Assembly (NCBI GenBank): GCA_000002435.2
Contig: CM018791.1
Origin: Giardia intestinalis
Lineage: Eukaryota
Reading direction: 5' to 3' (one strand)
DNA length: 64,000 nucleotides
The translations under genes and the position numbers were made by a program. The notes beneath the pieces are model-generated. The model was not told the DNA's origin. It saw only the letters and a list, made by a program, of their open reading frames with translations, and searched no databases. Below, one piece after another: positions 23,741 through 50,151 of this stretch (the stretch's first letter is position 1; every line of letters begins with the position of its first letter).

Positions 23741-26700
23741 TGAAGAGTGTGGACACGCGAGAAGTTGATTTAGTAGGGTTTGCTTAAGCAAGTAAAGTAG
23801 ATTATCTTAGCAACGTTTAAGTTTACTCTGTTTCATCAAGGTTGGTTTGCCAACTGCTGTCCAAGCAAGTCCCACACGGGCCGCTCCGCTCTGGGCAAAG
23901 CCCGGAATCAGACTCTGAAAGCTGGATTCCATCCATCTCCGGCGGGAGAAGAAGATGTTGTGTTCCTTCCCCCGGTGGCCATCGCTTGCTTCCACGGTGC
24001 CTTCCAGGACGTCCCATCCTCTGGCCCGTCGGGGTCAACTACCGTCTGGCACTAGTGGGCACCTACTATCTCAGGACCTTGCATTAGTTGCGGTGACCTG
24101 ACCTTGGGAGTAGTCTAGCCTCCACAGAATCCAGGGTTCTGGTACTCCATGACAAAGATGGGATACGCTATGACTTCGGGTGTCTACCTCGTTCCTTGGG
24201 GTGCCTCTTCGTCTCCTCGTGGATTATACCATCAGTCTCGAGTATGATTGGAGGGTCTGCTCCCCGTGCGCCTCTATCTTGGAGTTGTGGTACGCGTTTG
24301 TGGATGCCACGGACAGCTCCCATGTGTTGTGTCGGGGGAGAAGTATGGCCCTCTGCTCATGGATCACAGTGCACTCTTGCAGGTGCTCCGTCACCCAGCA
24401 CGAGACCGTGTCGGCGCATCATTCTATGCAGTGCGTCTGGCTCGGCTGACGTGTGGGCTGGTCCATCTGCACAGCACACTTGGGGTGATGCTTCGGTCTG
24501 TCGAGGCGTCAGTCCAGGGCCACCTCTCCGAGGGGCGTCATCCGAAGCACCAAGAGCGATCAGGACCGGTTCACCGTCAGGTCGTCTCGCTTAGTGTCCG
24601 CCTACTCGAGGGTGTCAGGCACTGCCAGCTGTTGTAGCAGACGCCCGGCAGGTGGCCCAGGCCGCCACCGCTCTTCGGTGCGGTCATGTGTTCAATTTGC
24701 CTCCGTCAGCCAAGCACCCCAAGGGCCTCATCTCTTGTCAAGGGATTCATATGAATCACGTGTGGGTCCATCTCGACAAGCGTGGCGAGTGATCGGCGCC
24801 ATTGCCAGCTTCAAACGCTCATCTGCACTCGCTATCGCCTTGAGGGAAGAAGCATTCTCCTTTGTCACCAAAATGGGACAACATCTGAACCTCGATTCCC
24901 TGACTTCAGATGATGAACAAGCAGGGAAGTTCTTTGCATGGCACTTGCATGAGGGATTTGCTCGGACAGCAGTTACAGCGTCTGGCTGCATGTTTCTCTT
25001 ACAAGCCTGGTAATTGACTAGGCTTGCTTTACAGTCGCGGAGACACTGCTGCGTCTCTCTGAGTCTTTTAGAGAGACGATCCAGTTTAGTGTAGAAGAGC
25101 GAACGCGACCCAGTCCCGTTCCTACCTGCTGCTCTACGGTCTGCTGCCGCTACTTGTTGTTCTCATTTCCCCTGCTATTGATAGTCGCAATACTCTATGA
25201 AGCAATCGCTTACATCCATCCGCAACCCTAGGCGTTACGGCTTGGAAGGCCATGTCACCGTATAAGCTCTATGGAGGGCATTTACTAGCCATGGCAGATG
25301 GAGGTCGCTGCTTCTGGAGGCCCTGGTGCATGTCGGGTCAGAAGACGCTGACTCCACTGGCTGCAGGAGCCCCCACTTACTGTGACAGCTTGAACTAGCA
25401 CCACTTCGAGGACAGAGGATATCTACAGCCCGAGAGGACACTCCTGCAGAGAACAGATTCAGGCATAGTCGCCAACAGATCCTTGATCCGGATAGATGAG
25501 AGCAGATACCCAATTAGTAAGGCTTTGACTAAGCTACGCAGAATCGCATCCTTCAACACCAGACTCTGACACACGAAGTCTAAGGCAGACCATAGGTACA
25601 TAGCAGACGGGTAGAAACCTGCTTCGTAGTGTGTGGAGGCTTTGATGAGGCAATCGCGGGCTTAATGAAGGCCGGGACCGGTAGCTCTAACAGACAGTTC
25701 CCCAGCTTTGGAATACTTGCGATCACCATAGAGTCAATACAGTGAGTTATCTGCAGTAACAAACTTGTGGGGATAAGAGCAGAGTTCCACCAAACTAGTT
25801 AGACACTAATGGATCCTAGCGCGAACTCGCAGTATAGGGACTTGCAGAAGGCACCGCGTTCTACTCATCTGAGTAAGACGGCCAAATGAGTGGACCCATA
25901 GTGCAAAGACCACGAGGCCAAGGGCTCCTCCATAGCCTCAGAAGCTAACATCACAAGAGTCACACTGGCTGCGGAGTGCTTTCTGATCCACTGAGGCTTA
26001 GCGGCATGGCTTCAGTTCCTAGTACGGCCAGACAGGCTTGAGACACGAGATACTCTGTCTGCTGCAAAGCACACCTTCTGGCAGCGACTCTGGTCTATCG
26101 AGTAACTCTCGCATAGAGGAGGCAGATGGCTCTGAAGCGTCACTGCTCGCCTGATAGCTCTGAGTCATGGCAGAGGAAGCTGTTTATGAGAATGCACCCC
26201 TAGTGTGTAGATCCACATTTTCGTGCGACGTGAGAAGACGCTCCTGGATTGATCTGTCATGCCTCTGTCTGCTCTAGCAAAAAGTAACCCAGCGTATGCA
26301 CTAGTGATCTATGTCGCCATGGCATCTGTAGCTAACTAGCCAACGAGACAATCACTAGAGGAACCCTCGCACACTTATGAGCGGAGGTGCAGCCTGAGAG
26401 CAATCCTCTGGCCGCTAAGTGATGGAAGAGCAGACATAGCGTTGCTCCGTACAATCACACTCTCTCACCTTAGTAGCTATGTGGGCAGCCCCGGTCTCGT
26501 GAAGTCTGTGGATAAGCTGCTTCACCCCATAAAGCATCCAGAATTACTACAGGTGACACCTGCAAAATCTTACTGCGGGAGGCCATGCTCCGCTAGAGAC
26601 GTGGCTCTGGAAACACATTAGCTGATGGGAGCTCCCCTCTGGCGTTCTTAGCGGCGGTGTCTGTCTACAATAGCTCTTACACCCACTGCCTGTATATGGC

Positions 26701-49800: not shown

Positions 49801-50151
49801 GAGACGAAGAGGCACCCCAAGGAACGAGGTAGACACCCGAAGTCATAGCGTATCCCATCTTTGTCATGGAGTACCAGAACCCTGGATTCTGTGGAGGCTA
49901 GACTACTCCCAAGGTCAGGTCACCGCAACTAATGCAAGGTCCTGAGATAGTAGGTGCCCACTAGTGCCAGACGGTAGTTGACCCCGACGGGCCAGAGGAT
50001 GGGACGTCCTGGAAGGCACCGTGGAAGCAAGCGATGGCCACCGGGGGAAGGAACACAACATCTTCTTCTCCCGCCGGAGATGGATGGAATCCAGCTTTCA
50101 GAGTCTGATTCCGGGCTTTGCCCAGAGCGGAGCGGCCCGTGTGGGACTTGC
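37856..50151. repeat. Right arm of large inverted repeat (palindrome), ~12.3 kb
   Basis: Reverse-complement twin of 23865..36160, with identical six-frame peptides on the opposite strand. Outer boundary is only ~31 bp upstream of the ATG at 50182. Confidence 0.9.
38415..40316 (-). CDS. Variant-specific surface protein (VSP), copy 2 (identical, tail-to-tail with copy 1)
   Basis: Identical 633-aa translation on the minus strand. The two stops are 2813 bp apart (35601 vs 38415), giving a convergent arrangement. Confidence 0.95.
   Translation of the reverse strand: [633 protein letters not shown]

What the first reader, a model, noticed from the sequence alone, without database searches (positions are those of the whole stretch)
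23865..50151. ~26.3-kb near-perfect palindrome carrying two identical VSP genes tail-to-tail
Two ~12.3-kb arms are reverse-complement images of each other (x ↔ 74016-x), down to identical six-frame peptides everywhere I could compare, and they flank a 1.7-kb unique core. Each arm holds one copy of a 633-aa CRGKA-terminated VSP, convergently oriented with stops 2.8 kb apart. Tail-to-tail pairs of virtually identical vsp genes about 3 kb apart have been described in Giardia (I recall the vsp1267 pair), but here the identity extends ~10 kb upstream of each gene. That is far beyond what gene duplication of a vsp alone would explain. It implies either a very recent inverted duplication, ongoing homogenisation by intrachromosomal gene conversion, or a foldback assembly artefact.
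Basis: partly seen in the sequence, partly recalled or inferred. Interest (0 to 1): 0.85.

Follow-up and report, generated by a model that had tools for sequence, protein, structure and literature searches.

The report
Known Giardia VSP gene palindrome
This is a real 26-kb inverted repeat in the Giardia intestinalis WB genome that carries the already published identical surface-antigen gene pair GL50803_00115830/115831. Comparison with other isolates indicates the two arms are kept identical by copying from one another, not by a very recent duplication or an assembly error.

Summary
The arms are 23860-36160 and 37856-50156, each 12,301 nt, with one mismatch 4 nt from the outer edge. They flank a 1,695-nt asymmetric core. 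Each arm holds an identical 633-aa VSP gene, and the two genes converge with 2,813 bp between them.

The locus is from Giardia intestinalis WB. The left flank gene is 100% GL50803_0016956. Gene size, orientation and spacing match the published chromosome 3 pair 115830/115831 (Xu 2020: 633 aa, 2813 bp; Adam 2010: divergence 559 nt past the stop, 2814 bp). The finding is therefore already known in kind and as a locus.

Three results go beyond those tables:
- The outer 9.84 kb of each arm is ORF-less, GC-enriched DNA. It is orthologous to assemblage E DNA in the left-arm position and diverges at the neutral rate.
- Four A2 isolates carry both outer junctions at the same positions.
- In DH the two arm ends differ from each other at 1 of 459 nt, yet are only 76-80% identical to WB, while the flanks are 97-100% identical. 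Ninety-nine alignment columns are shared by both arms within an isolate but differ between isolates.

This pattern is concerted evolution. An assembly artefact is effectively excluded. A purely recent duplication is disfavoured, although a recent lengthening of the arms in WB cannot be ruled out.

The parts
23860..36160 (+). Left arm of the palindrome (12,301 nt). Judged by synteny with assemblage E, this is the ancestral position.
   Evidence: define the arm. P15 contig L013 is collinear with 24803-33167, directly downstream of the GL50803_0016956 ortholog.
37856..50156 (-). Right arm, the reverse complement of the left arm with one mismatch at 50153.
   Evidence: define the arm. Its junction with the right flank is present in an independent Logan contig, L001 (49970-60808, 99.99% identical), and in four A2 assemblies.
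36161..37855 (.). Unique, asymmetric, GC-rich (0.62) central spacer with no recognisable gene.
   Evidence: Searches show only short chance-level internal repeats. No Pfam family scored better than E = 0.01, and every hit was below its curated cut-off. A diverged homologue exists elsewhere: P0159 matches 36115-37205 only across frame shifts.
33700..35601 (+). VSP gene copy 1 (633 aa). Inferred to be GL50803_00115830 or 115831.
   Evidence: Pfam VSP E = 2e-80. The protein has 26 CXXC motifs, 11.7% Cys and a TM segment followed by a CRGKA tail. Size and spacing match Xu 2020 Table 2.
38415..40316 (-). VSP gene copy 2, with a translation identical to copy 1.
23860..33699 (+). 9,840 nt of non-coding DNA upstream of VSP copy 1 (GC 0.52). 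Its mirror image is 40317-50156.
   Evidence: The longest stop-free stretch is 174 aa, against 160 +/- 29 in shuffles. There are no Pfam, VSP or RT remnants. Identity to P15 is 69%, with 167 indels that are mostly not multiples of 3; 4-fold degenerate sites of the flank gene are 71.5% identical. No 100-nt window exceeds 81% identity.
35602..36160 (+). 559-nt segment of the arm 3' of the VSP stop codon (GC 0.60). Its mirror image is 37856-38414.
   Evidence: This equals the '3' divergence 559 nt' reported for pair vsp1 in Adam 2010 Table 5.
33698..33704 (+). VSP initiator element, CAatgTT (consensus PyAatgTT), at the start codon.
   Evidence: Sequence read. The consensus is described in PMC2996952.
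35606..35620 (+). ACTTAGGTAGTAAAC, starting 4 nt after the stop codon. I read this as the extended VSP polyadenylation signal; it contains AGTAAAC.
   Evidence: Sequence read. The identification as the Giardia poly(A) signal rests on my own knowledge of the AGTRAAY motif.
23863..23863 (.). The only mismatch between the arms (A here, against the complement of 50153). It lies 4 nt inside the outer boundary.
   Evidence: In DH the only differences between its arms also fall within the first 6 nt.
21473..23740 (+). Left unique flank gene, GL50803_0016956 (hypothetical protein).
   Evidence: 100% identical over 755 aa to KAE8302856.1.
50182..50808 (+). Right unique flank gene, a NOT2/NOT3/NOT5 family protein of WB (KAE8302859.1).

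Best explanation
The window is chromosome 3 of Giardia intestinalis WB (assemblage AI). The feature is the published identical tail-to-tail VSP pair GL50803_00115830/115831.

Each arm consists of about 9.8 kb of unconstrained, GC-enriched non-coding DNA, one intact VSP gene with its initiator element and poly(A) signal, and 559 nt of 3' sequence. The two arms flank a 1.7-kb unique spacer.

The inverted-repeat structure is not brand new. Its outer boundaries are shared by sub-assemblages AI and AII. The arms are kept essentially identical within a genome by recurrent arm-to-arm (intrachromosomal) gene conversion, which is concerted evolution. Between isolates the arm sequence changes far faster than neutral DNA, most likely because it is also overwritten from diverged paralogous VSP-flanking sequence or from old haplotypes.

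Shown: the structure, the identity of the locus, the non-coding nature and orthology of the upstream DNA, and the concerted pattern at the arm ends. Inferred: that conversion acts along the whole 12.3 kb; that crossing-over between the arms should also flip the spacer; and that the two VSP copies behave as one antigen gene at double dose.
For: Structure.

Locus identity:
- The flank proteins are 100% WB GL50803_0016956 and the WB NOT2/3/5 protein. Their GenBank accessions (KAE8302856 and KAE8302859) leave room for exactly two proteins between them.
- Xu 2020 Table 2 lists chr 3, 115830/115831, -> <-, 633 aa, 2813 bp.
- Adam 2010 Table 5 lists pair vsp1 with divergence 559 nt beyond the stop and 2814 bp between ORFs.

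Age and homogenisation:
- Both outer junctions occur at the same positions in DH and in three other A2 assemblies.
- The DH left and right arm ends are 99.8% identical to each other (1 mismatch in 459 nt).
- DH versus WB is only 76-80% identical inside the arms, against 97-100% in the flanks and 97% at 4-fold degenerate sites.
- In the four-way alignment, 99 columns have WB_L = WB_R different from DH_L = DH_R. Only one real difference separates the WB arms, and three separate the DH arms; all of these lie within 6 nt of the boundary.

Ancestry: the P15 left side is collinear with the left arm at neutral divergence.
Against: - The concerted pattern could be tested only on the outermost 459 nt (DH) or 270 nt or less (other A2 samples), because the available contigs stop there.
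- In the DH assembly, homology of the right arm to WB ends after 795 nt and is followed by a reverse-transcriptase relic. The long arms may therefore be specific to AI.
- P15 shows no inverted arm within 10 kb of its NOT gene.
- For a WB-type sample I found independent support only for the right junction (L001). The one left-flank contig (L002) stops 82 nt short of the arm.
- No read-level data were available.
Confidence: 0.7

Rival explanations
1. Recent expansion in the WB/AI lineage. An older short inverted repeat (under about 1 kb) flanked the VSP locus. A single recent event, such as break-induced replication or template switching primed in that short repeat, copied the left arm in inverted orientation up to the NOT gene. 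On this view the 12.3-kb identity simply reflects youth, not continuing conversion.
For: In DH the right-hand arm homology stops after 795 nt and is followed by unrelated RT-relic DNA. P15 has no inverted arm next to its NOT gene, whereas its left side is collinear with the WB left arm. There is only one mismatch in 12,301 nt.
Against: Even under this model the short terminal repeat has evolved in concert in DH and WB (99 concerted columns), so arm-to-arm homogenisation is still required. The DH and P15 assemblies are fragmented 454-era drafts, and their contigs end in or near the repeat, so absence of long arms there is weak evidence. All 12 published tail-to-tail identical pairs in WB have similar spacing, which points to a recurring, maintained architecture.
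Confidence: 0.22
2. Assembly artefact: a foldback chimera, a missed SMRTbell adapter, or a collapsed or duplicated repeat.
For: Perfect long palindromes are a known long-read artefact. Short-read contigs break around the region. Adam 2010 notes that identical pairs terminated contigs prematurely.
Against: - The same inner boundary (559 nt) and spacing (2813/2814 bp) were reported from the Sanger assembly and from the PacBio reference assembly.
- The palindrome is internal, lies between two different unique gene-bearing flanks, and has a 1.7-kb asymmetric spacer that has a diverged homologue elsewhere.
- The junction of the right flank with the arm is present in an independent Illumina-derived contig.
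- Both junctions are present in four A2 assemblies.
Confidence: 0.03
3. Functional hairpin or double-stranded RNA locus. On this reading the convergent identical genes exist to produce antisense or hairpin RNA that feeds the RNAi pathway proposed to silence VSPs. This would add to, not replace, the structural explanation.
For: The two genes converge across only 2.8 kb. Contigs from runs that a preprint describes as WB single-cell RNA-seq (SRR9222559, SRR9222600) cover the gene and 1.2-1.8 kb of upstream DNA, which suggests transcription beyond the ORF. That RNAi regulates VSP expression is from my own knowledge (Prucca et al. 2008), not tested here.
Against: Each gene has its own poly(A) signal immediately after the stop codon. 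Other duplicated pairs (VSP1267; 50229/d50229) are the dominantly expressed VSP in some clones and single cells, so pairing does not impose silencing. The 9.8-kb upstream part of the arms evolves neutrally. No small-RNA data were examined.
Confidence: 0.08

Closest known systems
Identical inverted VSP gene pairs of Giardia intestinalis WB (vsp1267; 14 pairs in Adam et al. 2010; 19-20 pairs in Xu et al. 2020 and in preprint 10.1101/2022.03.07.483299)
   Same: The ORFs are identical and tail-to-tail. The 2.8-kb spacing falls within the 2.5-2.8 kb seen for the published tail-to-tail pairs. Identity ends abruptly a few hundred nt past the stop codon. The surroundings are gene-poor and GC-rich. By gene size, spacing, chromosome and flanking gene, this is pair 115830/115831.
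   Different: Nothing differs in kind. The published tables give only the inner divergence point for tail-to-tail pairs. I did not find in the papers I read either the 9.84-kb outward extent of identity or the comparison between isolates.
Gene-conversion-maintained palindromes of sex chromosomes (human and ape Y-chromosome palindromes P1-P8; from my own knowledge, Rozen et al. 2003)
   Same: Both have long inverted arms more than 99.9% identical around a unique spacer. The arms carry an expressed multicopy gene. Arm-to-arm identity far exceeds identity between lineages although the boundaries are shared, which is the signature of concerted evolution.
   Different: The scale is different (12 kb against 9 kb to 1.45 Mb), and so are the organism and genomic setting (an asexual or rarely sexual tetraploid protist). 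Divergence of the arms between isolates here is about 7-8 times the neutral level. That implies additional replacement from paralogues or old haplotypes, not merely conversion of new mutations.
Inverted-repeat isomerisation systems (the flip-flop of plastid genome inverted repeats; from my own knowledge)
   Same: Two long identical inverted repeats flank a unique segment. Recombination between them should invert the spacer and homogenise the repeats.
   Different: Inversion of the 1.7-kb core was not tested here, and no function of either orientation is known.

Membership tests
Giardia variant-specific surface protein (VSP) gene | Match to the Pfam VSP family (PF03302) above its curated threshold | tested here: met
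   271 bits against a cut-off of 31.4, E = 2.1e-80.
Giardia variant-specific surface protein (VSP) gene | C-terminal hydrophobic anchor followed by the invariant CRGKA tail; a cysteine-rich ectodomain with many CXXC motifs | tested here: met
   The protein ends ...[31 protein letters not shown]. It has 26 CXXC motifs and 11.7% Cys.
Giardia variant-specific surface protein (VSP) gene | Initiator element PyAatgTT at the start codon and a poly(A) signal just after the stop codon | tested here: met
   CAatgTT at 33698-33704 and ACTTAGGTAGTAAAC at 35606-35620. The Inr consensus is quoted from PMC2996952.
Giardia variant-specific surface protein (VSP) gene | N-terminal signal peptide | not tested
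   The hydrophobic N-terminus [14 protein letters not shown] is visible, but no signal-peptide predictor was run.
Published identical inverted VSP pair GL50803_00115830/115831 (WB chr 3) | Same gene size, orientation and spacing as published | tested here: met
   633 aa, -> <-, 2813 bp. The inner divergence point of 559 nt and the 2814-bp spacing match Adam 2010.
Published identical inverted VSP pair GL50803_00115830/115831 (WB chr 3) | Located in the WB genome next to WB genes | tested here: met
   The flank proteins are identical to GL50803_0016956, to the WB NOT2/3/5 protein and to GL50803_0011054, all on a 1,973,847-bp WB chromosome record.
Published identical inverted VSP pair GL50803_00115830/115831 (WB chr 3) | Protein sequence identical to the deposited 115830/115831 proteins | tested here: inconclusive
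   The deposited proteins could not be retrieved. An exact look-up found nothing, and the best database hit was 53% identical.
Palindrome maintained by arm-to-arm gene conversion (concerted evolution) | Arms nearly identical within a genome, around a unique spacer | tested here: met
   1 mismatch in 12,301 nt, with a 1,695-nt spacer.
Palindrome maintained by arm-to-arm gene conversion (concerted evolution) | The same palindrome boundaries in a diverged lineage, with between-lineage arm divergence much greater than within-genome arm divergence | tested here: met
   This holds for the outer 459 nt only. The DH arms are 99.8% identical to each other but 76-80% identical to WB. There are 99 concerted columns, and the boundaries coincide.
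Palindrome maintained by arm-to-arm gene conversion (concerted evolution) | The concerted pattern along the whole arm, including the VSP gene | not testable with these tools
Foldback or missed-adapter assembly artefact | A palindrome with no spacer or only an adapter-sized one, sited at a contig end and seen in one technology only | tested here: not met
   The spacer is 1,695 nt, asymmetric, and has a homologue elsewhere. The position is internal, between two different unique flanks. The structure was reported from both the Sanger and PacBio assemblies, and the junctions appear in Illumina and 454 assemblies.

The most novel reading that the evidence does not exclude
The tail-to-tail VSP palindromes of Giardia may form one recombining family built around a homologous GC-rich spacer of about 1.7 kb. 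Their arms would be homogenised internally and also periodically overwritten from paralogous palindromes. That would make VSP-flanking DNA, and possibly the VSP itself, turn over about 7-8 times faster than neutral DNA between sub-assemblages, while each genome always carries two identical copies. On this reading the palindrome is a maintained device for preserving and exchanging expressible VSP cassettes, not a duplication accident. GC-biased conversion would then explain the GC enrichment of VSP regions.
Probability: 0.3. Interest if true: 0.45.

Novelty: already known. Interest (0 to 1): 0.25.

Why it matters
VSPs are the antigens Giardia switches to evade immunity, and how the repertoire is maintained and renewed remains an open question. 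This locus is already catalogued, so its existence adds nothing new. The comparison across isolates made here does add something modest. At least the ends of the palindrome predate the AI/AII split and evolve in concert, and they differ between isolates far more than neutral sites do. That points to recurrent gene conversion, not one-off duplication, as the reason every identical VSP pair in WB is an inverted pair. It also yields a clear test that long-read data already in the public archives could settle.

There is a practical consequence too. Reads from the 24.6 kb of arm sequence map to two places. Expression, SNP and small-RNA analyses at this locus therefore need to be aware of multi-mapping.

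Tried and rejected
- Rfam at gathering thresholds over the whole window found nothing.
- Tandem Repeats Finder found only a trivial 13-nt repeat in the core.
- Pfam scans of the 19 longest stop-free stretches of the arm and core, and of the core homologue P0159, gave nothing better than E = 0.01, and every hit was below its curated cut-off.
- tblastn of 120 VSP homologues and of the RT-like ORFs from DH and P15 against the window found no VSP or RT remnants outside the two genes.
- Exact look-ups of the VSP, of a 121-aa ORF across the inner right boundary and of a 213-aa core ORF found nothing.
- Two metagenome scans, one with an inner-junction 33-mer and one with a conserved arm 45-mer, found nothing.
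- After I briefly suspected that the organism was not G. duodenalis, because only unnamed cluster representatives were listed. The cluster members showed that it is WB.
- I considered indel errors in an unpolished repeat as the cause of the ORF-less 10 kb and rejected the idea. The VSP inside the same arm is intact. Independent Illumina contigs match 32978-35017 at 100%. P15 has the same ORF-poor orthologous stretch.
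Full report
**Observation.** The repeat finder gives arms 23860-36160 and 37856-50156, each 12,301 nt, with 1,695 nt between them. A base-by-base comparison finds one mismatch, at 23863/50153, 4 nt inside the outer boundary. Complementarity is lost abruptly at both the outer and inner edges. 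The core (36161-37855, GC 0.62) matches nothing else in the window. ORFs 33700..35601(+) and 38415..40316(-) encode the same 633-aa protein.

**The genes are intact VSPs.**
- The protein matches Pfam VSP at 271 bits.
- It has 26 CXXC motifs, a hydrophobic anchor and a CRGKA tail.
- The start codon sits in the CAatgTT initiator context.
- ACTTAGGTAGTAAAC begins 4 nt after the stop codon.
- The ORFs are 2,813 bp apart, and the arm extends 559 nt beyond each stop codon.

**Which locus this is.** The left flank protein is 100% identical to GL50803_0016956 of Giardia intestinalis WB. The right flank proteins are the WB NOT2/3/5 protein and GL50803_0011054, and all lie on a 1,973,847-bp WB record. 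The GenBank protein accessions of the two genes bordering the palindrome differ by three, which leaves room for exactly two proteins between them.

Two published tables match the geometry.
- Xu et al. 2020, Table 2, lists chromosome 3, 115830/115831, -> <-, 633 aa, 2813 bp (PMC7000408).
- Adam et al. 2010, Table 5, working from the Sanger assembly, lists pair 'vsp1' with 3' divergence 559 nt beyond the stop and 2814 bp between ORFs (PMC2996952).

The finding is therefore a published identical inverted VSP pair. The literature also states the following.
- Every identical VSP duplicate in WB is an inverted pair.
- There are 19-20 such pairs, 12-13 of them tail-to-tail.
- VSP surroundings are gene-poor, with GC-rich upstream DNA.
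- 6.9% of the genome is duplicated, in blocks of up to 20 kb.

One point remains odd. The VSP protein itself could not be found in the protein collection. Identity with 115830/115831 therefore rests on geometry and flanks, not on a direct sequence match.

**What fills the arms.** Upstream of each VSP lie 9,840 nt with no ORF. The longest stop-free stretch is 174 aa, against 160 +/- 29 in shuffled sequence. There are no Pfam domains, no VSP or reverse-transcriptase remnants, no tandem repeats and no Rfam families. GC is 0.52 in this part, 0.60 in the 559-nt 3' segment and 0.62 in the core, against 0.45-0.47 in the flanks.

In assemblage E (P15, contig ACVC01000133), the 10 kb downstream of the GL50803_0016956 ortholog is collinear with left-arm positions 24803-33167.
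- Identity is 69% over ungapped columns.
- There are 167 indels, mostly not multiples of three.
- 4-fold degenerate sites of the adjacent gene are 71.5% identical.
- No 100-nt window exceeds 81% identity.

This is orthologous, neutrally evolving non-coding DNA, and the left arm occupies the ancestral position. P15 and GS show the same rise in GC downstream of this gene. In GS the site holds different VSP genes. The synteny break is therefore a long-standing VSP site.

**Artefact or real.**
- The same inner boundary and spacing were obtained from the Sanger assembly and from the PacBio reference assembly.
- A Logan contig from SRR3596240 contains the right flank plus the outer 187 nt of the right arm at 99.99% identity.
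- Seven of ten independent Logan contigs match 32978-35017 at 100%.
- Four A2 assemblies (DH; ERZ27317378; SRR3177990; SRR21529626) contain both outer junctions at the same nucleotide positions as WB.
- The spacer is long and asymmetric, and it has a diverged homologue elsewhere: P0159 matches 36115-37205 only across frame shifts.

A foldback or missed-adapter artefact is not tenable. Two gaps remain. I found no independent contig across the inner junctions. For a WB-type sample, the only left-flank contig stops 82 nt short of the arm.

**Recent duplication or homogenisation.** The A2 comparison is the informative test. In DH the left and right arm ends differ from each other at 1 of 459 positions. 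Against WB they are only 76-80% identical. The flanks on both sides are 97-100% identical per 400-500 nt, and 4-fold degenerate sites are 97% identical. The drop in identity coincides with the arm boundary.

In a four-way alignment, 99 columns, including a 17-nt indel, show WB_L = WB_R different from DH_L = DH_R. One real column separates the WB arms and three separate the DH arms, and all four lie within 6 nt of the boundary. This is the signature of concerted evolution. The inverted repeat predates the AI/AII split, and its copies have been homogenised since.

Arm divergence between isolates is about 7-8 times the neutral level. New mutations alone cannot account for that. One lineage must have acquired a diverged version, from a paralogous VSP-flanking sequence or from an old haplotype, which was then spread to both arms. 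Similar upstream sequences are reported around other duplicated pairs. The ERZ27317378 arms look like mosaics of WB-like and DH-like tracts. They differ from each other only at sites where WB and DH differ. That assembly may mix strains, so I treat this observation as suggestive only.

**Limits.** The A2 contigs reach only 48-795 nt into the arms. In the DH draft, right-arm homology to WB ends after 795 nt. It is followed by an RT-relic segment bounded by 119-nt inverted repeats. P15 has, 3.5 kb upstream of its NOT gene, a 1-kb piece resembling the arm end, but in direct orientation and next to an RVT_1 remnant. It has no inverted arm there. It therefore remains possible, at about 0.2, that an old short inverted repeat was extended to 12.3 kb recently in the AI lineage. 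In that case youth, not continuing conversion, would explain the identity of most of the arm.

**Mechanism, with status.**
- Shown: a palindromic locus with two intact, identical, convergent VSP genes; neutral non-coding arms; shared boundaries; and concerted arm ends.
- Inferred: double-strand breaks in one arm are repaired from the other arm on the same chromosome, which erases differences everywhere except the last few nucleotides at the edge of homology. This is consistent with the position of the only mismatches.
- Inferred: crossovers between the arms should invert the 1.7-kb spacer.
- Speculative: GC-biased conversion may contribute to the GC enrichment.
- Speculative: convergent read-through transcription might yield double-stranded RNA for the RNAi pathway proposed to silence VSPs. 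However, each gene has its own poly(A) signal, and other duplicated pairs can be the dominantly expressed VSP.

**Verdict.** Interest is low to moderate.

Noticed in passing
window 33700-35601 and 38415-40316: The 633-aa VSP is absent from the 5.8-billion-protein collection, by exact look-up and by homology (best hit 53% identical). Yet the flanking WB proteins are present, and the GenBank accession numbering leaves room for two proteins between them. The RefSeq XP numbers of the two flank genes are consecutive. This suggests the pair was dropped from RefSeq or from the collection, perhaps because the copies are identical duplicates.
   Followed up: partly
window 32978 and 34956-35048 (loci L003-L012): Seven independent Logan contigs start at exactly 32978. 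All ten end within the VSP at about 34956-35048. These look like assembly-graph branch points, which would imply that the sequence upstream of 32978 and the 3' third of the gene are shared with other loci in the genome.
   Followed up: no
L003 (SRR9222600) = window 31928-35048; L005 (SRR9222559) = window 32512-34982: Contigs from runs that a preprint describes as single-cell RNA-seq of WB-C6 cover this VSP plus 1.2-1.8 kb of upstream non-coding DNA, far beyond a normal Giardia 5' UTR. The cause is either transcription of the upstream region or carry-over of genomic DNA.
   Followed up: no
L004 (SRR445166) = window 32326-35021: This contig has 13 mismatches in 2,696 nt (99.5% identity), while the other runs match at 99.95-100%. 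It appears to be a variant allele or isolate version of the same VSP locus.
   Followed up: no
L022 (DH, AHGT01000058.1) 6066-6184 and 9074-9192: A segment of about 3.1 kb carries RVT_1-like ORFs and is bounded by 119-nt inverted repeats. It abuts the 795-nt arm remnant upstream of the DH NOT gene. Parts of it are 78-83% identical to DNA just downstream of the GS ortholog of GL50803_0016956 (L014 12408-14026). It looks like a retroelement relic that recurs at VSP sites.
   Followed up: partly
L019 (P15, ACVC01000226.1) 5418-6437 and 6883-8046: In assemblage E, a 1-kb homologue of the arm's outer end lies 3.5 kb upstream of the NOT gene in direct (left-arm) orientation, with an RVT_1 remnant between them. 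Meanwhile the first 1 kb after the P15 left flank gene matches this piece only weakly. This hints at an inversion or rearrangement history at the locus.
   Followed up: partly
L014 (GS, AHHH01000022.1) 14687-18948: In assemblage B the same synteny break downstream of the GL50803_0016956 ortholog holds three different VSP genes or fragments, followed by an AIG1-like GTPase and a NEK kinase. The site has therefore been a VSP locus in assemblages A, B and E, with lineage-specific content.
   Followed up: partly
window 36115-37205 (core) versus P0159 (UPI0001CA7288): A 396-aa unnamed UniParc ORF matches the core at 56-82% amino-acid identity, but only across three reading frames. A diverged DNA homologue of the spacer therefore exists in another Giardia genome or at another VSP pair. 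Its source could not be identified.
   Followed up: partly
L029/L023 (ERZ27317378), outer 270 nt of the arms: The arm ends of this A2 sample are WB-like for about the first 230 nt and DH-like beyond that. The left and right copies differ at 5 sites, all of which are WB/DH polymorphic sites. This could reflect partial conversion tracts or a mixed-strain assembly.
   Followed up: partly
window 23741-23859: The 119-nt unique intergenic stretch between the left flank gene and the arm already shows raised AI/AII divergence: 4 differences in the last 40 nt, and the 500-nt window 23474-23973 is 94.6% identical. The right flank shows the same effect more weakly (96.8% in 50142-50541).
   Followed up: no
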